A stretch of 25,902 bases of DNA from an uncultured Myxococcales bacterium. GTDB taxonomy: Bacteria > Myxococcota > UBA4151. The number at the start of each line of letters is the position of its first letter. Position 1 is the stretch's first letter. Both the position numbers and the translations under genes were made by a program. Where the stretch lies: assembly GCA_964013405.1 (NCBI GenBank), contig CAXGWI010000037.1, positions 1-25,902 on the forward strand, given 5' to 3'. Under the pieces are notes generated by a model. That model did no database searches, was not told where the DNA came from, and saw only the letters and a list, made by a program, of their open reading frames with translations. Below are positions 4,029 through 25,902 of the stretch, piece by piece.

Positions 4029-5345
4029 TTACGGTAAGCACTCGCCTTGATTCTCAAGGGCTAGCCACTGCTCGATCAGTCCAAGTGCATCGGCGCTTAA
4101 AGGCGGACCACCTCGAGGCATTTGATGACCGCAAAGGTCACCGCATGGGCCTTGCCCGCTGCCGACACAGCGGTCGTCCGCACCACATTCACCCCCCTCC
4201 GGGCTACAAACCACCAACTCGTCGGCCGCTTCACAGAACCCCTCACAGCGGTCACCCTCCGGGCACTGACCATCATTTTGGCAGGAGATTTCTGGCTGAT
4301 CTCGGCAGCGAAACCAATCGTCGCGGTTGACGAGCACATCGCCCTGGGTTCCGGCGAGTTTGGCGAGCAGATAGTTGTCGGGAGCGAGGAGGCGCAGTCC
4401 TTGTCGCGTGCGGTGACTGCGCAAGCTCTCGTAGAGTCGAGCGGCCGTGTTTCGTTCGATGGTGAGTCCACCGCTGGCGCCATGGCAACCGCCACAGCGG
4501 TCGAGGATACCCAACTCGTGCAGGCTACAAATCGTACTGCCCTCGGGGACGCATGCGGGCGAACAGCCGTCATCTGCTTGGTTGTTGCCGTCGTCACATA
4601 GTTCGCCGTCGTCGATGACCTCGTCGCCGCAAGATGCCGCCAAGCAATTGGTGCGACAGGCATCTGGCCGGTCGTCGTTGTTTCGCCGGCCATCATCACA
4701 GGCTTCATAGCCCTCATCATCCGGCTCGAGACCCCGCCGCAAAAATCCATCGCCGCACCGGGCTAGCTGACAGGTTCCGGTACACCCGTCCCCATTATCG
4801 TCATTGCCATCATCACAGTCTTCTCTGCCGGCGCGCACGAAGCCATCGCCACAGTCGGCAAACACGCAGCCTTCAACGCAGCCATCCGTGTTGTCGTCGT
4901 TTCCATCGTCGCATCGTTCCTCGCCTCGCTGACGAAAGCCATCGCCGCAATAGGCCTCCTGGCAGGTCCCCGGACAGGCATCTCGATCATCATCGTTGCC
5001 ATCATCGCAGGTCTCCCCCTCATCGATGACGCCATTGCCACAAAGGGGCCCACCATCCGCAGCGGGAGGCGAACCCACATCGATGACGATACCGCCGTCA
5101 CTGGGCATCCCACCGTCCGCGGTCGGTCCACTGTCCTGTTCGGCATCTTCACCCCCATCCACAGCGAAGCCCGTGTCGGTGACTGGGATCTGGCCCCCAT
5201 CCGCCGGGGGATGGTTTCCCGTATCACTGGTCGGTTGGGCGGCGTCCATACTGGCGATCTCGCCCGCGTCGGCTGAAGGGGTGGCCGGATCGCTTGGACA
5301 GGCGAGCAGCCCCAGGGAAGTCCAGATGAGAAAGAGGCGCCCCAT
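4029..5345 (-). CDS. Lipoprotein with five myxobacterial Cys-rich (DUF4215-like) repeats and a C-terminal c-type cytochrome domain
   Basis: Lipobox LLAC, a DAG/DGG low-complexity linker, five CG(N/D)x...CDDG...C...C repeats, CGGCH at 4482-4496, and MPRGGPPLS...LIEQW near the C-terminus. Confidence 0.85.
4542..5042 (-). repeat. Five tandem protein-level Cys-rich repeats (about 30-42 aa each)
   Basis: [16 protein letters not shown]..., [17 protein letters not shown]..., [17 protein letters not shown]..., CGDGFLRRG...CDDGRRN..., [16 protein letters not shown]... Confidence 0.9.
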
Positions 5346-11502: not shown

Positions 11503-13080
11503 TTATTCGGGCTTTAGTTTCGCCATATCGGAATCGACCTTGTCCAGCACAGTGGGCTCGAGGTCGCCGGCTCGTCCCGCATTAAAAGCGGTGATGCCCC
11601 TTTCCTCGTCGGTACCGGGGATGGTGTTGTCCAAGACAAGTGCCGCGAAGGCACCCACCGCCATGCCCGTTTGGCCTAGGGTGTTTAGGATGCTGGCGAG
11701 CAACGTGGAGAGGTCTGTGATGATGGCATCGAGGTGGCAACGGAGGGAGTAACCACAGGCTGCGACCTCGGCCGCTGCCGGATCCTGATTCAAGACGATG
11801 GGGTTCGCGGCAAAGTACTCGGGCACGCTCAGTCCCATAAAGATGGCAAAGCCGATGATGAAGAGGTTGCGGCTGGAGTTGAGGTCAACGAACTGGAGGT
11901 TCGAGAGCCCAACGGAAGCGATCATGCCGAACATGGCACAGTACATGCCCCCAACAATGGGTTGGGGGATGGTGGTAAAAAGGGCACCGAACTTCGCCAC
12001 CAGCCCCAAGACGATCATGATCATAGCGCCTGCTTGGACAACCCGCCGAGCGCCGACTCGGGTCAGGCCGATGGCGCCGATATTTTCGGAGTAACTGGTG
12101 GTGCCATTACCCGTGCCCATGATGCCCGCAATGAGGCTGCCGATGCCTTCGAACATGATGCCTCGGTTGACGGTTTTGGCGTCTGGCGTGGGGGCGCCTG
12201 CAAGTCGTGCGCAAGCATAGTAATCGCCAATACTCTCAACCATGGAGGCGATGTAGCCAGCGATCATCCCGACGATGGCGGCAGCCCCAAAGACCGGCAT
12301 TCCCCATTGAAAGGGGTAGGGGACACGGATCCACGGAGCGCTATGCAGGTTGGCGAGGCTCGTGTGGGCAGGGTGGGCTGCGGTGACGACTTCGCCGGCG
12401 TCATTGAGGACGGCACCGGGGAAATAACCCAGGTAGGTGCATACGGCTGCCACTGCCCAGGCCCCGACGATGGCCAGAAGGATGGGATAGAGTTCGAAGG
12501 CTCGATGCTTCTTCCTCAGATACTGGCTGAACAGGATGATCAAGAAGATGGTCAAGCCACCAATGGGCCAATGGCTACCGGCCACCGGGGCACCAAACTT
12601 AAAGAGCGCCAAGCCGATGAGCGCGATGGTGGGTGCGATCACAATCGGGCCAATGAAGCGAAGCATCTTGCCCACCAGACCGGTTGCGCCAACGATGATC
12701 TCCATGATTGCACCAACGATGATCGCACCTTGCACGTGCTGCATGCGGACCTCGAAGCCAGCCTCTGCAACGCCCGCCATGCCACAAATAGCGAAGGTGG
12801 GTGCGAGGAAGGAGAAGGTGCCGCCTTGGATGATAGGCAGACGGTTGCCCCAGGTCGTTTGTAGGAGCGTGGTGATGCCGCTAACAAAGAACATGGTGGC
12901 GATCAGGGCGCCCAGTTGGGCCGGATCCTTATCGATGCCTAAGGGCTTGCTGAGCAGCAGAGGAATCGCCACCGTGGAGCCAAACATCGTCAAGTAATGC
13001 TGAAAGCCCAGGGCGAGGGTCTCACCGGTCGGCGGGCGATCATCGATACCGTAGATCAGGTCGTTTTCATTTTCGGACAT
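11503..13080 (-). CDS. NCS2/NAT family nucleobase (uracil/xanthine) permease
   Basis: LGFQHYLTMFG (QH motif), SGITTLLQT, RLPIIQG, ESIGDY, and the NAT signature TTSYSENIGAIGLTRVGARRV. The ATG at 13080 is preferred over the 13125 start in the ORF track. Confidence 0.93.
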   Translation of the reverse strand: MSENENDLIYGIDDRPPTGETLALGFQHYLTMFGSTVAIPLLLSKPLGIDKDPAQLGALIATMFFVSGITTLLQTTWGNRLPIIQGGTFSFLAPTFAICGMAGVAEAGFEVRMQHVQGAIIVGAIMEIIVGATGLVGKMLRFIGPIVIAPTIALIGLALFKFGAPVAGSHWPIGGLTIFLIILFSQYLRKKHRAFELYPILLAIVGAWAVAAVCTYLGYFPGAVLNDAGEVVTAAHPAHTSLANLHSAPWIRVPYPFQWGMPVFGAAAIVGMIAGYIASMVESIGDYYACARLAGAPTPDAKTVNRGIMFEGIGSLIAGIMGTGNGTTSYSENIGAIGLTRVGARRVVQAGAMIMIVLGLVAKFGALFTTIPQPIVGGMYCAMFGMIASVGLSNLQFVDLNSSRNLFIIGFAIFMGLSVPEYFAANPIVLNQDPAAAEVAACGYSLRCHLDAIITDLSTLLASILNTLGQTGMAVGAFAALVLDNTIPGTDEERGITAFNAGRAGDLEPTVLDKVDSDMAKLKPE

Positions 13081-13196
13081 GGCTGTATTTTTCCGTTCGA
13101 TGCTTTCGGCAGGCCCCGCTACCATAAATCCGAAGACTTCCTAAGTGGAGGTTTTGGCAGTAAAGAATGCTGCCGAAAGTTAAAAAGGAGTCATCC

Positions 13197-14069
13197 ATGG
13201 CACGCAATGTCCGAGTGGGCCTCATCCAGGCCGCCAATGTGATTAATGATGAGTCTGTCCCCGTCGCAGAGATTCAGGAAGCGATGTTTCAAGCCCACCT
13301 CCCCTTGATCGAAGAGGCCGGTGAGGCGGGGGTTCAAATCCTGGGCCTGCAGGAAATTTTTAACGGCCCCTACTTTTGTCCGGGTCAGGACAAGCGCTGG
13401 TACGACGCTGCGGAGCCGGCCGATGGCCCGACCGTGGAACGCCTCCGGCCTTACTGCCAAAAGTACGACATGGCGATGGTGGTACCCATTTATGAGCGGG
13501 CGATGGCCGGTGTGTATTACAACTCGGCCGTGGTCCTTGATGCCGATGGTTCCACCGTTGGCCTCTACCGGAAGAACCACATCCCCCAGACCAGCGGCTT
13601 TTGGGAGAAGTACTTCTTCAAGCCGGGGAACCTCGGTTACCCCGTCTTCCAAACCAAGTACGGTAAAGTGGGCGTCTACATTTGTTACGATCGCCACTTT
13701 CCCGAAGGAGCCCGGCTTTTGGGACTTAATGGCGCCGAGGTGGTCTTCAACCCTTCGGCGACTGTGGCCGGTCTAAGCCAGTATCTCTGGGAACTCGAGC
13801 AGCCGGCGCACGCGGTCGCCAACGGCTACTTTATGGCGGCCAGTAACCGGGTCGGCACCGAGGCGCCTTGGAACATCGGTAAGTTCTACGGCACCTCCTA
13901 CATCTGCAATCCCCGGGGCGAGTTTCTAGCCAAAGCCGGCGAGGACAACGATGAGGTGGTCTACGCCGACTGTGACTTTGATATGATCGAGGAAGTTCGC
14001 AAGGTCTGGCAGTTCTACCGGGATCGGCGCCCGGACACCTATGACGACATGGTTCGGCAGTTGCCCTGA
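13197..14069 (+). CDS. Nitrilase-family beta-ureidopropionase (N-carbamoyl-beta-alanine amidohydrolase)
   Basis: Nitrilase triad motifs LQEIF, YRKNHIP and ICYDRHFPE, plus FWEKYFFKPGNLGYPVF. AAGGAG SD before the ATG at 13197. The pyrimidine-catabolism context supports the call. Confidence 0.88.
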   Translation: MARNVRVGLIQAANVINDESVPVAEIQEAMFQAHLPLIEEAGEAGVQILGLQEIFNGPYFCPGQDKRWYDAAEPADGPTVERLRPYCQKYDMAMVVPIYERAMAGVYYNSAVVLDADGSTVGLYRKNHIPQTSGFWEKYFFKPGNLGYPVFQTKYGKVGVYICYDRHFPEGARLLGLNGAEVVFNPSATVAGLSQYLWELEQPAHAVANGYFMAASNRVGTEAPWNIGKFYGTSYICNPRGEFLAKAGEDNDEVVYADCDFDMIEEVRKVWQFYRDRRPDTYDDMVRQLP

Positions 14070-15370
14070 TGACCAGCAGCCAGGACGTTCGCGACAAGCA
14101 TGAGCGCCACATGTTCCCCGCAGTGGGGAACTACTATGAAGAGCCGGTGGTGCTCACCGAAGGCAAGGGCAGCCGGATCAAGGATCTCGATGGCCGCGAG
14201 TACCTTGATTTCTTTGGTGGTATTCTGACCGTCAGTGTAGGGCACGCCAATGAGCGGGTGACTGACGCTGTCGTGAAGCAGGCACAGAGGATTAGCCACG
14301 TCAGTGCTTTGTATCCGACGGTGCCGATGGTGGACTTGGCCGAACGGCTGGCCAACAGCACGCCGGGACAACTTCAAAAATGTTTCTTCACAGCCAGCGG
14401 AACCGAAGCTGATGAAACAGCGGTCATGATGGCCCAGGTGTTCACCGGCAACATGGAGGTGGTGGCATTACGCCACGGTTATTCAGGGCGCAGTATGTTG
14501 GCGCAGAGTCTGACGGCCCACAGCACCTGGCGAGCGCTTCCGACACAGATTGCGTCCATTAAGCATGCTCATCCTGGTTATTGTTATCGCTGCCCGTTCG
14601 GGGAAAGCAGTGAGTCCTGTGGGATGCGCTGTGCGAAGGATATCGAGGATCTCATCCAGACGACGACCACTGGGCGCATCGCGGGGATGCTGGCGGAACC
14701 GATCCAGGGGGTGGGGGGATTCATTACCCCGCCCAAGAAATACTTCCAGATCGCTGCTGAAATCATTCGCAAGTATGGCGGGGTTTTCATCAGTGACGAG
14801 GTTCAGACCGGCTTTGGTCGGACGGGGAAGATGTGGGGGATCGAGCAGTATGGTGTCGAACCGGACATGATGACGATGGCAAAGGGGATTGCGAATGGCT
14901 TTCCCTTGGGCGCGGTTATCGCCACGCCAGCGATTGCCGATTCCCTGGAGAAGCCCAGCATCTCGACCTTTGGGGGTAATCCGGTGAGCAGTGCGGCGGC
15001 GAATGCTGTTCTTGATGAAATCGAGCAGGAGAACTTGGTGGAAAATTGCCGGGTTCAGGGCCAGCGTTTGCGAGCCGGCTTAAAAGAGATCCAGGGGAAA
15101 CATCCTCAGATAGTCGGTGAAGTGCGCGGCATGGGCTTGATGCAGGCCCTTGAATTGGTCGTGGATGAAACCCGCAAAGATCGGACCCCAAACCCGGCGG
15201 CAAAGGCAGCGCTGTTTGAGGAAACGAAGAAGCGAGGATTGCTGATTGGTGCCGGTGGCCTCTACGGTAATGTCATTCGAATCTCGCCCATGTTGAATGT
15301 GACCGCTGATGAGGTGGATGAAGCCCTCGCTGGCTTGTCTGAAAGTTTCGACGCCATCGACCCGCGGTGA
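14069..15370 (+). CDS. Class III PLP aminotransferase (probable beta-alanine aminotransferase, AGXT2/PYD4-like)
   Basis: YLDFFGGILTVSVGH, SGTEA, EPIQGVGG, SDEVQTGFGRTG, TMAKGIANG (PLP lysine), STFGGNP and VRGMGLM. Coupled to the upstream gene by a TGATG overlap. Confidence 0.9.
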   Translation: MTSSQDVRDKHERHMFPAVGNYYEEPVVLTEGKGSRIKDLDGREYLDFFGGILTVSVGHANERVTDAVVKQAQRISHVSALYPTVPMVDLAERLANSTPGQLQKCFFTASGTEADETAVMMAQVFTGNMEVVALRHGYSGRSMLAQSLTAHSTWRALPTQIASIKHAHPGYCYRCPFGESSESCGMRCAKDIEDLIQTTTTGRIAGMLAEPIQGVGGFITPPKKYFQIAAEIIRKYGGVFISDEVQTGFGRTGKMWGIEQYGVEPDMMTMAKGIANGFPLGAVIATPAIADSLEKPSISTFGGNPVSSAAANAVLDEIEQENLVENCRVQGQRLRAGLKEIQGKHPQIVGEVRGMGLMQALELVVDETRKDRTPNPAAKAALFEETKKRGLLIGAGGLYGNVIRISPMLNVTADEVDEALAGLSESFDAIDPR

Positions 15371-15438
15371 ATTGCCAGGCTGGGTTTTCGCTCTTCGGCG
15401 ATCATGATAGCCCCAAGACCTGAATTGAGGAGTTGGCC

Positions 15439-16542
15439 ATGGCCGATTTGAGTACGACCGTAAACGGGATGAAGTTCCCGAACCCCTTTGTTTTGGGCAG
15501 CGGGCCACCTGGCACGAACGCTCGAGTGATGAATCGGAGCTTTGCGTTGGGCTGGGGAGGGATCGTCTGCAAGACCATTAGTCTTGAGAACGATAAGGTC
15601 GCTAACGTGACCCCCCGTTACGCTCGGTTGAAAAATCGAACCGACAAAACCGTGATTGGCTTTGAGAATATTGAGTTGATCAGTGACCGCCCCTTTGATG
15701 CCTGGTTGGATGATTTGGCTGAGTGCAAACAGGCCCATCCAGACAAGATGCTCATCGCCAGCATTATGGAAGAGTATTCGAAGGATGCCTGGATCGAGAT
15801 TACGGAGCGGATCGCAGCCACCGGCGTGGACGGCTTCGAACTGAACTTCAGTTGTCCCCATGGCATGCCTGAGCGCAAGATGGGCGCTGCCATGGGCGAG
15901 AACCCCGATATTGTTGAGGAAGTGACGGGATGGGTGGTAGCCGCCACCGATTTGCCGGTTTGGGCCAAGATGACACCTAACCTGACGGACATTACGGTGC
16001 CGGCGCATTCGGCTGTCCGTGGGGGTGCCCATGGCATCAGCGCCATCAACACCATCAAGTCGATTCTCGGCATCAACCATAAGACCCTTCGGCCCTTGCC
16101 GACGGTCCAAGGCTACACCGTGCCTGGGGGTTATTCCGGCGCTGCCGTCCGTCCCATCGCACTTCGACATGTCATGGAGTTAGCGGCCGGTATGCCTGAT
16201 GGCGTGACGATCTCTGGGATGGGGGGAGTAGAGACTGCGGAGGATGCGGCAGAGTTCATCCTTATGGGCAGCCACACGGTTCAGGTTTGCACCGGGGCGA
16301 TGCTGCAGGGCTATGAGATGATCGAGAGCCTCTGCGAAGGCTTGTCCAACTGGATGGACGAGCGGGGCTTTGCCAGCCTGGATGACTTCCGTGGGCATTG
16401 CCTTCAGTACTTCACCAGCCATGCGGATTTGGTCGAGCGGCAACGACAGGCCAAGATTGAGAAGGCCGGTCGTTCGAACCGAGACAACATGTGGAAGGGT
16501 GACATCGCCAAGGAGACCGAATCGCTCACGAGTAACCTCTAG
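15439..16542 (+). CDS. preA: Dihydropyrimidine dehydrogenase FMN subunit, lacking the C-terminal ferredoxin domain
   Basis: NPFVLGSGPP, GFENIELISDRP, LIASIM, ELNFSCPHGMPERKMGAAMG, WAKMTPN, SAINT, GGYSG.AVRPIAL and VQVCT. GAGGAG SD upstream. Confidence 0.92.
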   Translation: MADLSTTVNGMKFPNPFVLGSGPPGTNARVMNRSFALGWGGIVCKTISLENDKVANVTPRYARLKNRTDKTVIGFENIELISDRPFDAWLDDLAECKQAHPDKMLIASIMEEYSKDAWIEITERIAATGVDGFELNFSCPHGMPERKMGAAMGENPDIVEEVTGWVVAATDLPVWAKMTPNLTDITVPAHSAVRGGAHGISAINTIKSILGINHKTLRPLPTVQGYTVPGGYSGAAVRPIALRHVMELAAGMPDGVTISGMGGVETAEDAAEFILMGSHTVQVCTGAMLQGYEMIESLCEGLSNWMDERGFASLDDFRGHCLQYFTSHADLVERQRQAKIEKAGRSNRDNMWKGDIAKETESLTSNL

Positions 16543-16556
16543 GCTTTGGTCTTTTC

Positions 16557-18092
16557 ATGATCTGGAAGATCGTCGGTATCGGCCTGTATCTCGCCATTTT
16601 GGTGGGGATCGGGATCGTCGCCAGTCGCCGCATGAAAGACATGCGCGACTATTTCGCCGCGGGGAAGTCTCTTGGCTTCCTCTCCGTCGCTTTTTCAGCT
16701 CGCGCCACAGGGGAGTCTGCCTGGCTCCTCCTGGGACTCACCGGCATGGGGGCTGCCATTGGCCTCAAGGCCTTTTGGGTGGTCCTTGGTGAGGTCCTTG
16801 GGGTCGGTATTGCCTGGCTCTTCATGAGTCGGCGCTTTCATCGCCTCACCCAACGCTACGATTCCATCACCGTTCCCGATTATCTCGAATCCCGTTTTCG
16901 AGACCGCTCCCAAGCGATCCGGAAGGTGGCGGCCCTCGCCCTCGTGATCTTTGTCACCGTCTACGTCAGCGCCCAGATCGATGCGACGGGCAAAGCCTTC
17001 GAGGACTTCCTGAGTTGGAACTATTACGTTGGCATCGCGGTCGGCTTTGCGGTGGTCTTGGCCTACACCACTTCGGGGGGCTTTCTCGCCGTGGTGTGGA
17101 GCGATGTCTTTCAGGGCTTCCTGATGGTCATCGGCCTTGCGGTGCTACCGATCGCAGCCCTCATCCATATCGGTGGTTGGTCGGCAGTGACTGCCAAGCT
17201 GAACAGTATCGATCCCCATTTAATGACCTGGACCGGGGAACAGGGCCTAAGCGCCATCGGCATCGCAACGATTTTGAGTTTAGCGCTCATCGGCCTTGGC
17301 TTTCTTGGCTCACCTCAGATCTTTGTTCGCTTCCTGTCCTTGAAGGACGAATCAGAAATTACCAAGGGCACGGCGACGGCGATTACGTGGACCATTATCG
17401 CCGATTCAGGGGCCGTACTCATCGGTATGGTTGGACGGGCCATTTTGGCTGACCAGGGCTTGGGCGGCGATACCGAGAACGTGCTGCCCTTGTTGGTTGA
17501 GCACCTCATGCCGGCCTTCTTGGTGGGGCTGTACATCGCGATCGTGCTGAGCGCGACCATGAGCACCGTCGACTCGCTTCTCGTGGTGGCATCCAGCGCC
17601 TTCGTTCGAGACTACTATCAGCAGGTCAAGCATCCGGATTTGGCCGACGACAAGTTGTTGGCCATGAGCCGAAAGATGACCCTTGCTTTGGCCGCTGTCG
17701 GCTTGGGCGTCGCGCTGCTCGTCGCACTGACGACACCCGACCGAACCGTTTTTTGGTTTGTTATTTTTGGATGGAATGGAATCTCAGCCACCTTCTGTCC
17801 CACGATTATTTTGAGTCTCGCCTGGCGTGGTATGACCGCCAAAGGCGCTCTTTATGCCATGGTGGGTGGCTTCCTGGCCGTCCCCGTCTTCCAGTGGGGT
17901 GCCCCGGCTTTAGGGGGCGATGTCGGGCTCTTCTTTAAGGAGTTGAGTTGTTTGCCGCCCGCTTTTCTCGTGAGCCTTGTCCTCGGTATCGTGGTGAGTC
18001 TAAGTGACCGTGAAGGTCAGAATGCGGTCGCCGACTTCGCTCAGGACCTTGAGAGCGAGCCCGGGACGGATTCATCTCGTCCCGTGGCCTAA
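16557..18092 (+). CDS. Sodium:solute symporter, PutP-like
   Basis: About 13 hydrophobic segments, with DYF..GKSLG, SARATGESAWLLLGLTG, TVPDYLESRF, GGFLAVVWSDVFQG, GFLGSPQIFVRF and SATMSTVDSLL. Confidence 0.9.
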   Translation: MIWKIVGIGLYLAILVGIGIVASRRMKDMRDYFAAGKSLGFLSVAFSARATGESAWLLLGLTGMGAAIGLKAFWVVLGEVLGVGIAWLFMSRRFHRLTQRYDSITVPDYLESRFRDRSQAIRKVAALALVIFVTVYVSAQIDATGKAFEDFLSWNYYVGIAVGFAVVLAYTTSGGFLAVVWSDVFQGFLMVIGLAVLPIAALIHIGGWSAVTAKLNSIDPHLMTWTGEQGLSAIGIATILSLALIGLGFLGSPQIFVRFLSLKDESEITKGTATAITWTIIADSGAVLIGMVGRAILADQGLGGDTENVLPLLVEHLMPAFLVGLYIAIVLSATMSTVDSLLVVASSAFVRDYYQQVKHPDLADDKLLAMSRKMTLALAAVGLGVALLVALTTPDRTVFWFVIFGWNGISATFCPTIILSLAWRGMTAKGALYAMVGGFLAVPVFQWGAPALGGDVGLFFKELSCLPPAFLVSLVLGIVVSLSDREGQNAVADFAQDLESEPGTDSSRPVA

Positions 18093-19366
18093 GGGGTTAG
18101 ATACAGCATCGCCAGACACATCTCGTCCATGGTGTCTTCGCCGAACCGTGTGATCTCCGTCCGGCGGCTTGAGTCGAAGTTGCAGGTGATCTCAAGCTGG
18201 TCCGTCGGGCGCAGTTCAACCGGCTCGTGGAGGAAGTAGCCCAGCTGCCAATTGAAGTCCCAGTGCTTCACGTCCACCAGGCAATGGCGCTCACCATTGC
18301 GGATTCGCTCCAAGCGGAAGGTCGTGCCCAACTCGTGCATGTGAGGGATGAGACCCCAAAGCCGGATGGCTTGAGCAGCGCCGGCCTCCCGTGCAGTCAC
18401 CGCATTCTTGACCGTGTAACTCGCTTCGCCAGGGGGGATGGCAAACTCATTGAAGCCATGAACACGCATCAGCCCTGGACTGTCGACTTGAGAGGCGGTC
18501 TCGAGCCGAATGCTCGTCCGGTCCTCAAAGGCACCGTTGACCATATTATAGTGCATTTGCAGGATGAGCTTCCGACCGGCGGGAAGTTCGAGCCCCGTAC
18601 CGGCAGGGTAGGAGACTGCCCCAGTACCCGGTGCCCAGGCAGCAAGCATATTGCTGGGGACGCCCGAACCCCCGTAACAGGAGTATCCGGGCCTACCGCC
18701 CTCACCGTCCCTCGCTTCTGCTGCTCTTTCGGCGCCGGCATTCGCGGGGCTGTAGAGAATGACGTGGTGCACCACGCGGGGATCGCCCGGGACCACCTCA
18801 TAGCGAGTGACAAAGATATTTTCGGTCAGTTCGGGATCGACAAGGAAGCAGCGATAGTCGTCGGAAACGCCGTCATCGGGAAGATAGCTCACTGGCATGG
18901 TGACCGTGAGATCAGGGGCTTCGATGGTTGGCAGTGGTGGGACTTCGGGGGCTGGTTTGCTTTCACCTTCGGCCGCACCCGTGGCAGCCCAATCCGTGAG
19001 GGTTTGGATTTGCGCATCACTGAGCCAATTGGCGTCGACCCATTCGCCACATTCGCCGGAACCATCGGCTAGGAAGGGCGGCATGCTTCGGCTCCGGGTC
19101 GATGCGGCGATCGCCCCGGCCATCGGCTTCGCTTGGGCGTAGGTCCCCAGAGGAAAGGGGGCGATACCGCCCTCTTCATGACAGCGCAGGCAGTGGTCAG
19201 CCAGGATCGGTGCGACATCATCGTGCCAGGTCAGGCCCGATTGGGGGGGCGGGCCACCGTCCTCCGTTTTCGGGCCTTCAGGGAGTTCTGGCGCTTCGTA
19301 GATGAGGGGGCAGGCCCAGAGCAGGGCTGCGATGAATGCGATGGCCGGCGTCCGTTTTAACATCAT
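18089..19366 (-). CDS. Lipoprotein: c-type cytochrome fused to a copper type II (PHM/DBH-like) monooxygenase domain
   Basis: Lipobox LWAC, CLRCH at 19178-19192 followed by MPP and LSDAQIQTLTDW, and Cu-ligand motifs VHHV, QMHY, PHMH and DEMC, plus WDFNWQ. Confidence 0.85.
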   Translation of the reverse strand: MMLKRTPAIAFIAALLWACPLIYEAPELPEGPKTEDGGPPPQSGLTWHDDVAPILADHCLRCHEEGGIAPFPLGTYAQAKPMAGAIAASTRSRSMPPFLADGSGECGEWVDANWLSDAQIQTLTDWAATGAAEGESKPAPEVPPLPTIEAPDLTVTMPVSYLPDDGVSDDYRCFLVDPELTENIFVTRYEVVPGDPRVVHHVILYSPANAGAERAAEARDGEGGRPGYSCYGGSGVPSNMLAAWAPGTGAVSYPAGTGLELPAGRKLILQMHYNMVNGAFEDRTSIRLETASQVDSPGLMRVHGFNEFAIPPGEASYTVKNAVTAREAGAAQAIRLWGLIPHMHELGTTFRLERIRNGERHCLVDVKHWDFNWQLGYFLHEPVELRPTDQLEITCNFDSSRRTEITRFGEDTMDEMCLAMLYLTP

Positions 19367-19586
19367 TCGATCCGATCTTTCTCTTGGCCCACCAGGCGAG
19401 TCACCCAGGCCTCCACTGAACCGACGGTGCGTCGAGGTTCAATCTCGAATACAGCGAAAGCAATTCACGGGAGATGAATAAGATTCAGCATGGAGCCGGG
19501 AACGATGGCGTTTCGTCGATTTGTACTTGCTCGCCGCCCACGACAGCTTGTTGCAGGACAAGAGCGCGAGCGAAGCGGCCGACAAA

Positions 19587-20132
19587 CTATTCATGCCGGG
19601 GCGGTCCGCCCCATTGGTTGACCTTCTGCTCACTGGGTAGAACCGTGAAGACAAAGAGAATGATCCCACCCACATAAGGCACGAAAGAAATCAGATACCA
19701 CCAGCCGCTGCGACCGGAGTCATGGAGCCGGCGAATCGTGACGGCAAGCATCGGAATGATTAGGGCGATATAGGCCAGCCCGCCGATGATGGCCAAGCCA
19801 CCGGTCAGGATGTCATTGATGGCGGCGGCCATCGCGATGGCAAAAGCAAAGACAAACACAACGAAGATGAATGTCAGCCAGAAGCCCCAGTATTCGGTGC
19901 GACTGGCCCGGCCCGAGAAGTTCCCATAGTTTCGAAACACACAGTGGCCAAAGGCCCCCATGAGTTTCGGGCTTAACGCACCGGTACCCGATGGTGCGTG
20001 TCCTCCGCCATCAGTCACCGGCGTGAAGTTCGGCTGCCCGGCACCCCCCATGGCAGCCTGATTGGCTCCGCAGTTCGTACAGAAAGCGGTACCGTCAGCA
20101 TTTTCGGTGCCACAGGTTGGACAGAAAGCCAT
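19587..20132 (-). CDS. DUF805 inner-membrane protein with N-terminal zinc ribbon
   Basis: FCPTCG...FCTNCG, then NYGNFSGRASRTEYW, IRRLHDSGRSGWW and NQWG. GAGGAG SD upstream. Confidence 0.92.
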   Translation of the reverse strand: MAFCPTCGTENADGTAFCTNCGANQAAMGGAGQPNFTPVTDGGGHAPSGTGALSPKLMGAFGHCVFRNYGNFSGRASRTEYWGFWLTFIFVVFVFAFAIAMAAAINDILTGGLAIIGGLAYIALIIPMLAVTIRRLHDSGRSGWWYLISFVPYVGGIILFVFTVLPSEQKVNQWGGPPRHE

Positions 20133-20348
20133 ACGCTTCTCCTCGTGTTGGGGGCGAGCATAAAGGGGAGGCTCTTGTTTGACCAGCCACCAACTTCTGG
20201 GGGGCGCTGCGCTTTTGGACGCCTTGAGGAGCGGGTCCGCCGTTTGTCCGACCCGGCCTCAATTCCTTGAAGAGCCACTGCCTTGCCGATAAGGGGCAGC
20301 GCCAACGACCACTCGCGCACACGAGAAGGTTGGCACTGAGGGGGAATC

Positions 20349-23300
20349 ATGGGCCTATCAGACGCACAGAGACGGCGACGGATCGGATGGTGGCGGGCAG
20401 GGCAAAAGGCGCCCGATCATGGCGCCGAAGCACTGCAGCGGGCGGCACAACGTGTTGACGAGCCGTTTTGCCTTGTCGAAGCCGAAGGCCGACTGGCCGT
20501 AGCTCAAGAGGGGACGTGGGGTCTCGGTCTGGGGCAAGGAGGGGATTATCCCCTGATGGCCCGGGTGCCTGCGCTCCATCCCAGCACCTTGGGGGCCCAG
20601 AGTTTCCTCGACGACTATCAAGTTCGTTACGCTTACGTGGTGGGGGCCATGGCCAACGGGATCAGCTCCGTTGATCTCGTAGCTGCCGCGGCAGAAGGTG
20701 GGCTCCTCGGCGTTTTCGGTGCAGCCGGTCTGGCCATCGACGAGGTGGCCGCCGCCATCAAGACCCTAAAACAACGGCTTGGTGCGAAGACCTTCGGCGT
20801 CAACCTCATCCACAGCCCCCAAGAGCCCGAACTGGAATCGGCCCTGGTTGATTTGCTCATCGAGGAGTCGATTGAGACGGTGTCCGCCAGCGCCTTCATG
20901 GGTTTGACGCCGGCTTTGGTGCGTTATCGAGTCCAGGGGCTGTCTCAAGGCGAGAAGGGGCAGGTGGTCATCGGTCACCGCATCCTGGCCAAGGTGAGTC
21001 GGGAAGAGGTGGCGAAGCAATTCCTGCGTCCGGCCCCTGCGAAGATCCTTAATCAGTTACTGGAAGCCGGTCAGATCACGGCACTGCAGGCCAAGCTTGC
21101 GGCCCAAGTGCCCATGGCCGACGACCTGACCGCGGAGGCCGACTCCGGTGGGCATACGGACCATCGGGCCCTCGTGGTGCTGCTTCCCGCGCTCCTGGCC
21201 CTGCGGGACCAAATTCAGTTGGAGCAGGGCTACGCTCAGGCACCACGGGTGGGCGCAGCTGGCGGAATTGCCACGCCTTCTTCGGCGGCAGCAGCCTTCA
21301 GTCTTGGCGCCGATTACATCCTGACAGGATCGGTGAATCAGGCCTGCTTGGAGTCGGGGAGTTCCGATCGAGTTCGGCAGATGTTGGCCGTGGCCAAGAG
21401 TACTGACGTCACCCGGGCGCCGGCCGCGGATATGTTTGAGATGGGCGTTACCGTCCAAGTCCTGGCGAAGGGCACGCTGTTTGCCCAGCGGGCGAAGCGC
21501 TTGGACGGCTTGTATCGTCGCTATGCCAGCCTGGACGAGTTGCCTGCCGACGAGCGGAGCAAGGTCGAGGAGATCCTAGGTCAGTCCATCGACGAGGCCT
21601 GGGCATCCTGTGAGCGCTTCTTCGAGCAGCGAGATCCGAGCCAGTTGGAGAAGGCCGCCAACGACCCCAAGCATCGTATGGCTTTGGTCTTTCGTGCCTA
21701 CCTCGGCCTCAGTTCCCGTTGGGCCAACGCCGGTGAGCCCTCCCGGGCCATGGATTACCAGATCTGGTGTGGGCCGAGCATGGGGGCGTTTAACGACTGG
21801 GTTCAAGGGACGTGGCTGGAGGAATGGTCCAGTCGGCGAGTCCTCCCGATCGCCCACAATATGCTTCTCGGCGCCGCGGCTCAACTGCGGCTGTCGACCC
21901 TTCGGGCCCAGGGCGTTCCCCTACCGCATGTGGGTGATTTTAAGCCCCTTTCGGCTGCGGCTGCAGCCAAGCTGTTGGCCCGGCCGGTCGTCGAAGCGAC
22001 GGGACCGGAGTCGGCGGTTACAGAAGAAGTAGAGGCCCCTGCTACAGGCTCTGATCGCGAGGCGGTCGCCATCGTCGGTATGGGGGCGCTCTTTCCCAAG
22101 GCGGCGGATCTCGATGGCTACTGGCGCGCCCTTCGTCAGGGCGTCGATGCCATCGACGAGGTGCCGGCTTCTCACTGGTCCCTGGATGACTACTACGACG
22201 AGGACCCCCAGACGCCTGATATGACCTATGGTCGCCGTGGCGGGTTCCTCGATCCGGTGGATTTTGATCCCACCGAGTTCGGTATCCCTCCGACGATTAT
22301 GGAGGCCACCGATACGTCCCAATTACTGGCGCTGATGGTGGCCCGCCAGGCCCTCGAGGATGCCGGTTACGGTGAGGGGGTGTCCTGGGATCGCTCCAGA
22401 GCCTCCGTGGTTCTCGGCGTGACCGGGACCCAGGAGTTGGTGATCAACCTCGGCGCCCGATTGGGGCATCCCCGTTGGCGGCGGGCCTTGGAAGAGGCCG
22501 GTGTCGATGCTGAGACCCGTGAGGATGTGATCGCTCGCATCGCCCAGAGTTATGTCGGTTGGCAGGAGAGCTCCTTCCCGGGGCTGCTTGGCAACGTCGT
22601 GGCCGGGCGGATCGCCAACCGGCTCGACTTCGGCGGCACGAACTGCGTCGTCGACGCGGCCTGTGCGAGTAGCTTTGGCGCCCTTCACATGGCCCTTATG
22701 GAGTTGGAGACAGGCCGAGCCGACATGGTGCTGAGCGGTGGCGTGGATGCCCTGAACGATATCTTCATGCACATGTGCTTCTCCAAGACCCCGGCCCTGT
22801 CTGCGACGGGTGATTGCCGACCCTTTAGTGCTGAGGGTGATGGCACGGTCCTCGGAGAAGGTGTGGGCATGGTGGTCTTGAAGCGCCTCGCCGATGCGGA
22901 GCGAGATGGCGATCGTGTCTATGCCGTGCTGCGCAGTGTGGGGACATCGAGCGATGGTCGGGCCAAGTCGATCTACGCGCCGGTGGCCAGTGGGCAAGCT
23001 CGGGCGCTGCGAAGCGCTTATGAGCAAGCGGGCGCACCACCCGAGACGATCGGTATGCTGGAAGCCCACGGCACGGGAACCAAGGCCGGTGACGTGGCCG
23101 AGTTCACCGCATTGAACGAGGTTTACCGCCAGGCCCAGTCCGAGGGCACTTGGTGTGCCATCGGCTCGGTGAAGAGCCAGATCGGCCATACGAAAGCAGC
23201 CGCGGGTGCAGCGGGCCTGATCAAGGCCGCATTAGCCCTTCGTCACAAGGTGCTGTTGCCGACTTTGAAGGCAACGGAGCAGCCCAACCCGAAGCTCGGT

Positions 23301-25902
23301 CTTGAGGACAGTCCCTTCTATTTGAGCGACCGTGCTCGTCCATGGCTGGCCAGTGGTGAGCACCCGCGCCGTGCTGCGATTAGCAGTTTCGGTTTTGGTG
23401 GCTCGGACTTCCATGCGGTGCTCGAAGAGTACCGACCCCAGCGCCCCGAGGTGGCTTGGGATGGGAGCGTCGACATCGTTGCCGTCAGCGCAGCCCGCCT
23501 CGATGGGCTCAAGCAGGCCCTCCAGTCCTTGCTGGAGGACCCGACTGCGGTGCCCCACTTCGCCCCGACCGACAGCCATCGGGCCGTTCTTGTGCTGGGT
23601 TCTGAGGAGGACCGAGCTGGGCGGATTCAGGAGATGCTGAAGGCGCTGGCGACGGCGCCCACCCAGTGGTCCTCGCCCCTTGGTAGCTACTACGCGCAAG
23701 GGCCGGCCGAGCCCATGGCCTTCGTCTTCCCCGGTCAAGGTGCTCAGCGGGTCGATATGTTGCTGGAGTTGGCCTGTCTCTTTCCCGAGTTCATGGAGCG
23801 GCTCACCGCTTTGGGCCCGCTGGCCCATTCCATCTATCCCATTCCAGCCCTGGACGACGCGGCTCGTCAGGCCCAGCAGGCTGCGTTGACCGCCACCGAT
23901 GTGGCCCAACCTGCACTGGGTGCGATCGGCAGTGCCTGCCAGGCTTTGATGGCGCGCTTTGGTCTCGAGGCTCAGCATTACGCGGGTCACAGCTACGGCG
24001 AGTTGGTCGCGTTGCACGCTGCGGGAGCGCTCACGGCCGAGGAACTCTTCGTGGCCTCCCAGCGGCGCGGCGAGTTGATGGCTGGCGATGGCGAGGACCG
24101 GGGCACCATGCTGGTGGTGCTGGCTCCCCTCGAGGCCATCAAGGGCCTGATCGAGAAAGAAGCTTTGGATGTCGTGTTGGCGAACGAGAATGCGCCGGCG
24201 CAGGGCGTGATTGCCGGTAGCCGAGAGGCCATCGACGCGGCGGAAGCTGCCTGCAAGGTGGCCAAGCTTCGGACCCGGCGGATTCCGGTGGCGGCTGCCT
24301 TCCATAGTCCTCTCGTCGCAACGGCAGAGACTGCCTTTACGGACTGTGTGGACAGCTTGGATTTCGCCGTTCCCGCGGCCCCGGTCTACGCCAACACGAC
24401 AGCGCAGCCTTACACGGGCAGTCGCGAAGACCGTGTGCGCTTGTTGGCCGGGCAACTGTCCCGGCCCGTCCGGTGGAAGGACAGTGTGGAGACCATGTGG
24501 GAGCAGGGTGCTCGACTCTTCGTGGAGTTGGGACCCGGCAAAACCCTCAGTGGCATGATCACTCGAACCTTGGGCGAGCGGGATCATCATTGCCTTGCAT
24601 TGGATGATGGTGGCGCCCGCGGCTCCCTCTTTGGTTTGGCGAAGCTCTTGGGTCGCTTAGCTGCCTTGGGGCAGCCCGTGCGGCTCTCCGAGTGGCAGCA
24701 GCGGGCCTTGGCGCCCCGGGCCGAGCAGATGGTCTCTCGGGAACCCCGGATGTCCATGCCGATTTCAGGCGTGAACTATCGGGCCCCTTACGAGCCCATG
24801 CCGCCCCGTGCGATCAAGCCGGCCGTCACCTCGCCGGTTGCCTCGGTGGGATCGCCCCCTTCGGCGCTACCTGTCGCTTCGGCGAGGCCCGCCGCACCGC
24901 CGCTGGCGGCGGATTCGGCCCTCTTACATCAAAGCCTCCAGCAGTTACAGGCCTTGCAGGCTCAGACAGCCCAACTCCATGGGCAGTTCTTGGAGGGGCA
25001 GCGGCAAGCGCAACTCGGCATTCAGAACCTGCTCTCAGGGGTTCCTGTCCAGCACCCGACGGCTCCGGTTCAAGTCCCGACGATGCCGGTCGTTCCTCCA
25101 TCGGTTGGAGCCCCCCCAGCGGCAGCCCCGATGGTCGCGGCGCCGAAGACCGCCGGACCATCGCCGGCGATCCCCGAAGTCCAAGGACCTGTGGTCGAAA
25201 AGGTTGCGGTGGTTGCCGCCGCACCGGTTGCCGCGATCTCCGCCGAAGACCTTGCTCAGGCCCTCTGTGCGGTCACCGCCGAGGCCACCGGCTATCCGGC
25301 CGAGATGCTCAAGTTGGAGATGGAGTTTGAGGCGGACTTGGGCGTTGATTCGATCAAGCGGGTGGAGATTTTGTCTCGCCTGGCCGATCGGATTCCCGGT
25401 GCGCCCCAGGTGAATCCGGAAGATTTGAGTGACCTGCGAAGCCTGGCTCAGGTCATCGACTTCATGGGTGAGAAGATTCAGGCCAGCCCCGTGGCTAGCA
25501 GCCCCCAGGCTAAGCCGACCCCGGTGGCGGCCGCGGCCAGCAGCACCTTAGGGCCGGAAACTGTGCAAGCCGCGGTCTTTGCGGTGATCGCTCAGACCAC
25601 CGGTTATCCGGAGTCCATGTTGGAAGCGTCGATGGAGTTCGAAGCCGATCTGGGTGTGGATTCCATCAAGCGGGTTGAGATTCTTTCTCGGGTCGCCGAC
25701 GCCCTGCCCGAGTTACCCCAGGTGAACCCGGAGGATCTAAGCGATCTGAGGAGCATCGCTCAGGTGGTGGCTTTCTTGACCGCCGATCTGGGGGCCACTG
25801 CCCCTGCCGCCCCGGTGAATGGGGCGAGCGGATCTGTACTGACTGCAGACCTTGTTCAGGCCGCGGTCTTTGCGGTGATCGCTCAGACCACCGGTTATCC
25901 GG
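20349..25902 (+). CDS. Iterative type I PKS / PUFA-synthase: PfaD-type enoyl reductase fused to PfaA-type KS-MAT-ACP-ACP-ACP (runs off the right edge)
   Basis: One frame from the ATG at 20349 (GAGGGG SD). ER motifs YAYVVGAMANGI, AEADSGGHTD, APAADMFEMG and DYQIWCGP. KS motifs VAIVGMG, VDAACASS (Cys at 22662), EAHGTGT and KSQIGHTK. MAT motifs FPGQG, GHSYGE (Ser at 23991) and AFHS. ACP motif EADLGVDSIKRVEI (Ser at 25350 and 25662). Confidence 0.93.
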   Translation, partial: MGLSDAQRRRRIGWWRAGQKAPDHGAEALQRAAQRVDEPFCLVEAEGRLAVAQEGTWGLGLGQGGDYPLMARVPALHPSTLGAQSFLDDYQVRYAYVVGAMANGISSVDLVAAAAEGGLLGVFGAAGLAIDEVAAAIKTLKQRLGAKTFGVNLIHSPQEPELESALVDLLIEESIETVSASAFMGLTPALVRYRVQGLSQGEKGQVVIGHRILAKVSREEVAKQFLRPAPAKILNQLLEAGQITALQAKLAAQVPMADDLTAEADSGGHTDHRALVVLLPALLALRDQIQLEQGYAQAPRVGAAGGIATPSSAAAAFSLGADYILTGSVNQACLESGSSDRVRQMLAVAKSTDVTRAPAADMFEMGVTVQVLAKGTLFAQRAKRLDGLYRRYASLDELPADERSKVEEILGQSIDEAWASCERFFEQRDPSQLEKAANDPKHRMALVFRAYLGLSSRWANAGEPSRAMDYQIWCGPSMGAFNDWVQGTWLEEWSSRRVLPIAHNMLLGAAAQLRLSTLRAQGVPLPHVGDFKPLSAAAAAKLLARPVVEATGPESAVTEEVEAPATGSDREAVAIVGMGALFPKAADLDGYWRALRQGVDAIDEVPASHWSLDDYYDEDPQTPDMTYGRRGGFLDPVDFDPTEFGIPPTIMEATDTSQLLALMVARQALEDAGYGEGVSWDRSRASVVLGVTGTQELVINLGARLGHPRWRRALEEAGVDAETREDVIARIAQSYVGWQESSFPGLLGNVVAGRIANRLDFGGTNCVVDAACASSFGALHMALMELETGRADMVLSGGVDALNDIFMHMCFSKTPALSATGDCRPFSAEGDGTVLGEGVGMVVLKRLADAERDGDRVYAVLRSVGTSSDGRAKSIYAPVASGQARALRSAYEQAGAPPETIGMLEAHGTGTKAGDVAEFTALNEVYRQAQSEGTWCAIGSVKSQIGHTKAAAGAAGLIKAALALRHKVLLPTLKATEQPNPKLGLEDSPFYLSDRARPWLASGEHPRRAAISSFGFGGSDFHAVLEEYRPQRPEVAWDGSVDIVAVSAARLDGLKQALQSLLEDPTAVPHFAPTDSHRAVLVLGSEEDRAGRIQEMLKALATAPTQWSSPLGSYYAQGPAEPMAFVFPGQGAQRVDMLLELACLFPEFMERLTALGPLAHSIYPIPALDDAARQAQQAALTATDVAQPALGAIGSACQALMARFGLEAQHYAGHSYGELVALHAAGALTAEELFVASQRRGELMAGDGEDRGTMLVVLAPLEAIKGLIEKEALDVVLANENAPAQGVIAGSREAIDAAEAACKVAKLRTRRIPVAAAFHSPLVATAETAFTDCVDSLDFAVPAAPVYANTTAQPYTGSREDRVRLLAGQLSRPVRWKDSVETMWEQGARLFVELGPGKTLSGMITRTLGERDHHCLALDDGGARGSLFGLAKLLGRLAALGQPVRLSEWQQRALAPRAEQMVSREPRMSMPISGVNYRAPYEPMPPRAIKPAVTSPVASVGSPPSALPVASARPAAPPLAADSALLHQSLQQLQALQAQTAQLHGQFLEGQRQAQLGIQNLLSGVPVQHPTAPVQVPTMPVVPPSVGAPPAAAPMVAAPKTAGPSPAIPEVQGPVVEKVAVVAAAPVAAISAEDLAQALCAVTAEATGYPAEMLKLEMEFEADLGVDSIKRVEILSRLADRIPGAPQVNPEDLSDLRSLAQVIDFMGEKIQASPVASSPQAKPTPVAAAASSTLGPETVQAAVFAVIAQTTGYPESMLEASMEFEADLGVDSIKRVEILSRVADALPELPQVNPEDLSDLRSIAQVVAFLTADLGATAPAAPVNGASGSVLTADLVQAAVFAVIAQTTGYP
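25245..25902 (+). repeat. Tandem ACP-domain repeats (two complete, third truncated)
   Basis: Repeated TGYP..ML...MEFEADLGVDSIKRVEILSR units. An identical 43-nt stretch occurs at 25569-25611 and 25860-25902 (period 291 nt). Confidence 0.9.

What the first reader, a model, noticed from the sequence alone, without database searches (positions are those of the whole stretch)
20349..25902. PfaD-type enoyl reductase fused N-terminally to PfaA-type KS-MAT-ACPn in one polypeptide
Seen: reading 21780-22080 codon by codon shows no stop between the ER C-terminus (DYQIWCGPSMGAFNDW...LRAQG) and the KS start (AVAIVGMG). They are joined by an Ala/Pro/Glu-rich linker of about 50 aa, and the ORF track lists no separate PfaD ORF. 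Established: pfaD is a separate gene in Shewanella/Moritella, and in myxobacteria pfa1 (ER) lies just upstream of pfa2 as its own gene. Inference: this is a pfa1-pfa2 fusion, an atypical PUFA/secondary-lipid synthase architecture with an unknown product.
Basis: partly seen in the sequence, partly recalled or inferred. Interest (0 to 1): 0.75.

Follow-up and report, generated by a model that had tools for sequence, protein, structure and literature searches.

The report
Fused two-gene polyunsaturated lipid synthase
In a group of mostly uncultured myxobacteria, two normally separate genes of a known fat-building enzyme system are joined into one giant gene; the enzyme likely makes polyunsaturated fatty chains, so this is a real but modest rearrangement of a known pathway.

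Summary
The fusion is real. Window 20349-25901 is one open frame: a PfaD enoyl reductase, a 47-residue link, then KS-MAT-ACP. It appears to continue on contig C13 (more ACPs, KR, DH), followed by a complete PfaBC without AGPAT. The same junction occurs in 65 other proteins and in 34 of 401 genomes of the phylum. These form one KS clade, sister to split Geobacter/planctomycete-type (type I/J/K) clusters with the same gene order, so the fusion likely arose once by loss of the stop between adjacent pfaD and pfaA. In the other fused genomes oleA follows pfaBC directly (29 of 30 loci), the Geobacter C31:9 hydrocarbon layout. This genus lacks that linked cassette, so its product more likely enters membrane lipids (untested). 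Fused 'pfaDA' genes are already in print (Ottowia, Aquimarina, Renibacterium-like). A type-M-like example checked here has tandem FabK-like reductases instead, so this PfaD-type fusion looks independent; my searches found no paper on it. The scan noted the FabK-type fusion earlier on other DNA. Verdict: new variant of a known kind, modest interest.

The parts
20338..20345 (+). Shine-Dalgarno-like purine run before the ATG
   Evidence: sequence
20349..25902 (+). 5' part of the fused pfaDA gene (ER-KS-MAT-ACP1-ACP2-start of ACP3); runs off the contig end and appears to continue on G000:C13:3-2903 (ACP, ACP, KR, PS-DH)
20349..20579 (+). N-terminal PfaD extension (aa 1-77), alignable to the N-terminus of PfaD 4YX6
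   Evidence: match from residue 14
20580..21920 (+). PfaD-type FMN enoyl reductase (aa 78-524) with helical insert; His269 of EADSGGH at 21153-21155
   Evidence: TIGR02814 615 bits; PF21607; His in 66 of 68 rows, 2 gapped
21921..22061 (+). 47-aa ER-KS link: about 22-25 aa of PfaD tail (helix 536-544), then an Ala/Pro/Glu-rich unstructured stretch
22062..23438 (+). PfaA-type ketosynthase, Cys772/His907/His947
   Evidence: triad in 68 of 68 rows
23715..24578 (+). malonyl-CoA:ACP transacylase, GHSYG (Ser1215) and AAFH
   Evidence: xAFH is described as MAT-specific in PMC12895367 passages
25245..25472 (+). ACP1, LGVDSIK (Ser1668)
25557..25784 (+). ACP2, LGVDSIK (Ser1772)
25848..25902 (+). start of ACP3, cut by the contig end inside the ACP repeat

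Best explanation
This is the first subunit of a two-gene, iterative PUFA-type synthase (PfaDA: ER-KS-MAT-ACP(4+)-KR-DH; PfaBC: KS-CLF-AT-four FabA-type DH domains) that likely builds polyunsaturated acyl chains from malonyl-CoA and, in this genus, likely releases them through the PfaBC acyltransferase into membrane lipids. Shown: the domains, the intact catalytic motifs, the conserved fusion and the gene neighbours. Inferred: the chemistry, by analogy with Pfa synthases (FMN-dependent ER reduces enoyl-ACP; KS/CLF elongate; FabA-type DH place cis double bonds). Also inferred: the origin, one loss of the stop between adjacent pfaD and pfaA in a Geobacter-type pfaD-A-BC-oleABCD operon, which would fix ER:PfaA at 1:1 and tether the ER near the ACPs without new chemistry. 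In the rest of the family the chains likely go to the co-transcribed OleABCD to give a C31:9-like polyene hydrocarbon. This genus has no such linked cassette.
For: Domains above cut-off; catalytic residues conserved in the family. PfaBC starts at an ATGA overlap on C13, has the PfaC KS-CLF structure 6RIW as best PDB hit, four FabA domains and a PfaB-type GYSLG AT motif. An Sfp/HetI-type PPTase lies on C59. One KS clade: 79 fused rows plus 4 N-truncated fragments, support 99; 17 of 17 fused rows in the IQ-TREE subset, SH-aLRT 99. Of 54 GTDB loci with ER before KS, 48 are split and 10 of those have overlapping stop and start codons. OleA is found in 33 of 34 fused genomes and lies 14-33 nt after pfaBC in 29 of 30 loci read, and within 300 nt in 15 of 20 split sister genomes. 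Geobacter bemidjiensis has pfaD,A,B,C-oleA,B,C,D in tandem and makes C31:9 (PMC4882568 passages). Here pfaBC is followed by pyrimidine-catabolism genes. The genome's own OleA is about 40% identical to the linked OleAs but 65-67% to those of family relatives G002/G003, which gave no match to the pfa junction query. No oleA was found in same-genus G001.
Against: No lipid, expression or enzyme data. The genome carries a full oleABCD-like operon on C23 that could take the chains. G001 is 93% complete, so its missing oleA may be a gap; its dihydropyrimidinase orthologue was also not recovered (best hit 39%). The AT motifs are the same in ole-linked relatives, so nothing in the synthase itself marks a switch to membrane lipids. 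Four desaturases are present, so PUFA could also be made aerobically. The C37-C13 join rests on repeat identity, gene order in relatives and flanking pyrimidine genes, not on reads.
Confidence: 0.5

Rival explanations
1. Same synthase, but here too its chains (such as 16:4) go to OleA and end as a polyene hydrocarbon, using the unlinked oleABCD operon on contig C23.
For: Family-wide pfaBC-oleA adjacency. G000 has oleA/B/C/D-like genes in order (the OleC and OleD models score high but below their cut-offs). OleA takes acyl chains from Pfa ACPs in Shewanella (PMC6463001 passages). Unlinked pfa and ole genes are known (PMC3098273 section 10).
Against: This OleA groups with those of relatives that gave no pfa match, not with the linked OleAs. 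No oleA was found in G001, which keeps the intact fusion.
Confidence: 0.3
2. The fused chain holds all six activities of a type I FAS and replaces or completes FAS II, because the genome has no stand-alone FabZ/FabA.
For: All 4 PF07977 matches in G000 (94% complete) lie inside PfaBC. A precedent was proposed for Renibacterium (PMC3098273 passage).
Against: FabD, FabH (2), FabG, FabF, AcpP, PlsX and a FabI-like gene (below cut-off) are present, as are three MaoC-type dehydratases. G002 and G003 lack both a PF07977 match and the pfa genes, and 14 of 41 relatives have no PF07977 match. Two of three other fused genomes checked, G041 and G043, have a stand-alone PF07977 gene.
Confidence: 0.1
3. The pair makes a non-PUFA specialised lipid (long saturated or hydroxylated chain) for a tailoring system elsewhere, such as the DarB-like or type III PKS loci.
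For: A DarB-like KS with a desaturase and an MMPL gene on C2; a type III PKS with a FAAL on C1.
Against: Neither locus is linked. PfaBC keeps KS-CLF and FabA-type dehydratases as in PUFA synthases. Family context points to Ole.
Confidence: 0.09
4. The fusion is an assembly error (a lost stop or a frameshift).
For: No raw reads, and 25 bases of the link are uncovered. Such false fusions exist: G431 looks fused only through a frameshift.
Against: 65 other proteins, 34 of 401 genomes, one clade, and a gap-free diverged link in L002. The ER matches its profile to position 442 of 444 in the same frame.
Confidence: 0.01

Closest known systems
Type I secondary lipid synthase of Geobacter bemidjiensis (pfaD-A-B-C-oleABCD-pfaE; C31:9 producer) and the related types J/K (Shulse & Allen 2011, PMC3098273; PMC4882568)
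   Same: Gene order ER, KS-MAT-ACPn-KR-DH, fused PfaBC. The KS sister group holds Gemmata, Planctopirus and Desulfococcus loci. ole genes follow directly in the other fused genomes.
   Different: pfaD and pfaA are one gene. The PPTase is unlinked. This genus has no linked ole cassette. The Geobacter sequence itself was not in my tree.
Published fused 'pfaDA' + pfaBC(-PPTase) clusters: Aquimarina sp. TRL1, Flavobacterium sp. N502540, Ottowia thiooxydans, and the Renibacterium (type M) cluster they are said to resemble (10.1101/2025.10.24.682833)
   Same: An enoyl reductase fused N-terminally to KS-AT-ACP-KR.
   Different: The example with that layout fetched here (L205, G101) has two FabK-like ERs (TIGR03151; no TIGR02814 or PF21607; no BLAST similarity to this ER, E 1.7), one ACP, no DH hit, and a single-KS partner ending in a PPTase. 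The published proteins themselves were not fetched, so their ER type is inferred.
Myxobacterial Pfa1/Pfa2/Pfa3 (Aetherobacter, Minicystis, Sorangium; PMC8436480)
   Same: ER first, then KS-MAT-ACP-KR-PS-DH, then KS-CLF-(AT)-DH; PPTase at another locus.
   Different: Pfa1 and Pfa2 are separate genes there, and Pfa3 ends in AGPAT, which is absent here.
Canonical PfaA-E of Shewanella/Moritella
   Same: The ER is a close PfaD homologue (4YX6, E 1e-156); the KS-CLF's best hit is the PfaC structure 6RIW.
   Different: Five genes with pfaD last, against two genes with the ER at the N-terminus.

Membership tests
Pfa-type PUFA/secondary lipid synthase | PfaA-type KS-MAT-tandem ACP-KR(-DH) | tested here: met
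   TIGR02813 above cut-off; at least 4 ACPs, KR and PS-DH across C37 and C13
Pfa-type PUFA/secondary lipid synthase | PfaD-type FMN enoyl reductase | tested here: met
   TIGR02814 615 bits against cut-off 449, PF21607, His269
Pfa-type PUFA/secondary lipid synthase | KS-CLF plus FabA-type dehydratases and a PfaB-type AT | tested here: met
   C13:2900-9757. TIGR02816 matches only below cut-off.
Pfa-type PUFA/secondary lipid synthase | PPTase available | tested here: met
   one ACPS-family, HetI-like gene on C59
Pfa-type PUFA/secondary lipid synthase | Makes polyunsaturated acyl chains | not testable with these tools
   no biochemical data
Type I (Geobacter-type) pfa-ole operon | Order ER, PfaA, fused PfaBC; KS in the type I/J/K group | tested here: met
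   (group named through Gemmata, Planctopirus and Desulfococcus loci; Geobacter not included)
Type I (Geobacter-type) pfa-ole operon | pfaD is a separate gene | tested here: not met
   fused
Type I (Geobacter-type) pfa-ole operon | oleABCD in tandem after pfaBC | tested here: not met
   not met in G000; met in 29 of 30 oleA loci of other fused genomes
Myxobacterial Pfa1-3 (Aetherobacter type) | C-terminal AGPAT on Pfa3 | tested here: not met
   no such Pfam hit; the protein ends after the last FabA domain
Type M-like fused pfaDA + pfaBC-PPTase | Tandem FabK-like ERs; partner with one KS and a fused PPTase (as in L205) | tested here: not met
Type M-like fused pfaDA + pfaBC-PPTase | Shared KS ancestry with the type M example | tested here: inconclusive
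   AU test does not reject one clade (p 0.48; the type M row is a long branch)

The most novel reading that the evidence does not exclude
An independently evolved, so far undescribed PfaD-PfaA fusion gives a complete PUFA synthase in only two polypeptides. In this marine myxobacterial genus it has been cut loose from hydrocarbon synthesis and makes long-chain PUFA (EPA/ARA/DHA type) for membranes. That would be a naturally stoichiometric, minimal PUFA synthase from an unrecognised marine producer, with a first chain holding a full FAS-I-like set of activities.
Probability: 0.3. Interest if true: 0.55.

Novelty: new variant of a known kind. Interest (0 to 1): 0.33.

Why it matters
If active, a natural ER-PfaA fusion shows that PfaD works when tethered to the PfaA N-terminus, which constrains models of the Pfa complex and offers a two-gene cassette for heterologous PUFA or polyene production. 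The family also marks a group of Myxococcota (26 of 172 genomes in one family, 6 of 7 in another) as likely producers of Ole-type polyene hydrocarbons. The chemistry is probably known chemistry, so the gain is architectural.

Tried and rejected
Read support: 13 runs were listed, none holding half the words; no RNA holder was listed. Only contigs could be laid: one search gave scattered short pieces, X3 and X4 gave none, X8 left 21974-21998 uncovered.

Structure of residues 1-1033 (34-row alignment): mean pLDDT 64.9, pTM 0.54; the ER is confident and the KS is not, so it says nothing on ER-KS docking. No complex prediction or fold search was run. The Atlas search gave no result.

FAS II replacement was rejected as the main reading. 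FabV searches were uninformative because the controls did not ring.

G431 first counted as fused but is a frameshift artefact: the true ER ends at an ATGA overlap, and grouping it with the fused clade is rejected, p-AU 1e-33. P0079 and P0088 look similar (links of 151 and 116 aa) and were dropped from the count of 65.

The KS tree cannot show independence from type M (p-AU 0.48); that claim rests on the ER type. An insertion of the pfa pair into the pyrimidine cluster could not be tested: 4 of 5 relatives gave no preA match. The promoter/terminator scan found nothing above chance.

Literature: nine searches found no paper on a PfaD-type fusion in Myxococcota. Figure 1 of PMC3098273 and Figures S6/S9 of the hybrid-lipid paper are images I could not see, and they bear on the ER type of the published fusions. 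Gemperlein 2014 (Chem Sci) and Sukovich 2010 were seen only as reference entries.

Full report
Observation. The window is all of contig C37 of a 3.9-Mb genome, 94% complete. A relative at 89% identity is titled Myxococcales bacterium (L002). Frame 20349-25901 is open for 1851 aa. It holds a PfaD ER (aa 78-514, TIGR02814 615 bits, cut-off 449; helical insert PF21607), then KS (572-1030), MAT (1123-1410) and two ACPs, and scores above the TIGR02813 PfaA cut-off. The ER aligns along its length with solved PfaD proteins (4YX6 E 1e-156). The link is 47 aa. Split PfaD proteins mostly extend 20-24 aa past the same point and split PfaA proteins mostly start about 10-15 aa before the KS. The model folds 521-550 with the ER and leaves about 555-572 unstructured. 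The link is therefore PfaD tail plus PfaA lead plus a few residues.

Not an artefact. Raw reads were not available; X8 contigs cover the link without indels except for 25 bases. L002 aligns gap-free with a diverged link. Of the best 120 hits to the junction, 67 cover it at 95-100%. 65 of them show ER then KS with 41-79 aa between, and the other 2 are N-truncated; two lower hits with frameshift-like links were dropped. Seven of the best 150 cluster representatives span the junction. 6 of 80 GTDB loci kept (of 580 found) are fused, all titled as Myxococcota. In 401 genomes of the phylum, 34 have a stop-free junction by my count of the listing: 2 in the window's family, 26 of 172 in f10, 6 of 7 in f22. 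L002 and G001 are counted once.

Rest of the system. C13 begins in the same ACP repeat and continues with ACP, ACP, KR and PS-DH to 2903. An ATGA overlap then starts a 2285-aa PfaBC: KS-CLF-AT-four FabA domains, no AGPAT. Its best PDB hit is the PfaC KS-CLF structure 6RIW. The join is inferred from repeat identity, from full-length relatives with the same order, and from pyrimidine-catabolism genes on both sides. At least four ACPs result. Catalytic residues are present: ER His269, KS Cys772/His907/His947, MAT GHSYG/AAFH (conserved in 65-68 of 68 rows, the rest gaps), ACP DS, KR Tyr, DH His/Asp, second KS triad, AT GYSLG. The AT motif readings follow PMC12895367 (passages); the ER, KS, KR and DH motif assignments are recalled. 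A PPTase lies on C59.

Origin. In a 250-row KS tree, 79 fused rows and 4 truncated fragments form one group with support 99. A 45-row IQ-TREE subset gives the same result (17 of 17 rows, 99) and places it beside split clusters of Planctomycetota, Desulfobacterota and Elusimicrobiota, including Gemmata, Planctopirus and Desulfococcus. Gemmata, Desulfococcus and Planctomyces limnophilus are listed under types I, K and J in PMC3098273 (sections 5 part 1, 7 and 10 and passages read); that P. limnophilus is now Planctopirus is recalled. Of 54 loci with ER before KS, 48 are split and 10 of these have overlapping stop and start codons. A single stop loss in such an operon is the simplest origin (inference). 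One apparent second fusion, G431, is a frameshift error.

Product. OleA is found in 33 of the 34 fused genomes. It lies 14-33 nt after pfaBC in 29 of 30 loci read (the other at 1046 nt; the loci of two genomes were not fetched), and within 300 nt in 15 of 20 split sister genomes. oleB and oleD follow in the long regions read, and the gene between them in L155 matches OleC models. This is the layout of Geobacter bemidjiensis, a C31:9 producer (PMC4882568 passages), and OleA draws acyl chains from Pfa ACPs (PMC6463001 passages). The window's genus is the exception. pfaBC is followed by MMSA dehydrogenase and dihydropyrimidinase. Its oleABCD-like operon is on C23. That OleA is about 40% identical to the linked ones and 65-67% to those of G002 and G003, which gave no match to the pfa junction query. 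G001 gave no oleA (93% complete). I therefore put membrane PUFA at 0.5 and hydrocarbon through the unlinked OleA at 0.3. The AT motifs do not separate the two. The genome lacks a stand-alone FabZ/FabA, but so do relatives without pfa genes, 14 of 41 in all, and the rest of FAS II and MaoC dehydratases are present, so replacement of FAS II is unlikely (0.1).

Comparison with what is known. Fused pfaD-pfaA genes are reported for Ottowia, Aquimarina and Flavobacterium and likened to Renibacterium (10.1101/2025.10.24.682833, passages; supplement of PMC13291983 searched, architecture figures not visible). An actinobacterial cluster with that layout (L205) has two FabK-like ERs with no similarity to this ER, and a single-KS, PPTase-fused partner. 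Such proteins are common in Streptomyces, and none of the best 120 lists PF21607. The KS tree cannot exclude shared ancestry (p-AU 0.48), but the fused partner differs, so an independent event is likely; the published proteins were not fetched. Myxobacterial Pfa1-3 keep the ER separate and end in AGPAT (PMC8436480 passages). PMC6163206 and PMC7064751 (passages) did not mention the fusion. Nine searches found no description of this PfaD-type fusion.

Verdict. A real, lineage-wide rearrangement of a known synthase, with known chemistry most likely: new variant of a known kind, interest 0.33.

Noticed in passing
window 11503-16542 and L001 9865-12914: Reductive pyrimidine-catabolism genes (uracil permease, beta-ureidopropionase, class III aminotransferase, PreA; then MMSA dehydrogenase and dihydropyrimidinase) flank the pfa pair on both sides. 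No preT-like ORF was seen among the ORFs scanned.
   Followed up: partly
window 18089-20132: A copper monooxygenase-like gene and a zinc-ribbon/DUF805 gene lie between the sodium symporter and pfaDA here, but are absent at that spot in G001.
   Followed up: partly
G000 whole genome; No stand-alone FabZ/FabA was found in any of the 6 genomes of this family searched, and 14 of 41 relatives have no PF07977 match at all, although FAS II is otherwise present in G000. The dehydratase they use is unknown; three MaoC genes are candidates.
   Followed up: partly
L137 3159-8229 (G000:C2): MMPL/HpnN-like transporter, desaturase and DarB/StlD-like ketosynthase in one cluster.
   Followed up: no
L136 1846-6930 (G000:C1): Type III PKS, ICMT-type methyltransferase, fatty acyl-AMP ligase and flavin reductase in one cluster.
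   Followed up: no
L215 3591-5400 (G431): A false ER-KS fusion made by a frameshift; a caution for domain-architecture surveys of MAGs.
   Followed up: yes
L156 6215-8250; L158 1145-3276: A second, divergent oleA-oleD pair follows the main ole genes in G042 and G044.
   Followed up: no
P0069-P0070, P0072-P0078, P0080-P0083: Other natural fusions put a PfaD-type ER C-terminal to a KS-containing chain (some from Anaerolineae, cyanobacteria, Chitinophagales by name).
   Followed up: no
window 4029-5345; L001 15855-18029: Cysteine-rich repeat proteins (DUF4215 in the window copy) typical of myxobacteria.
   Followed up: no
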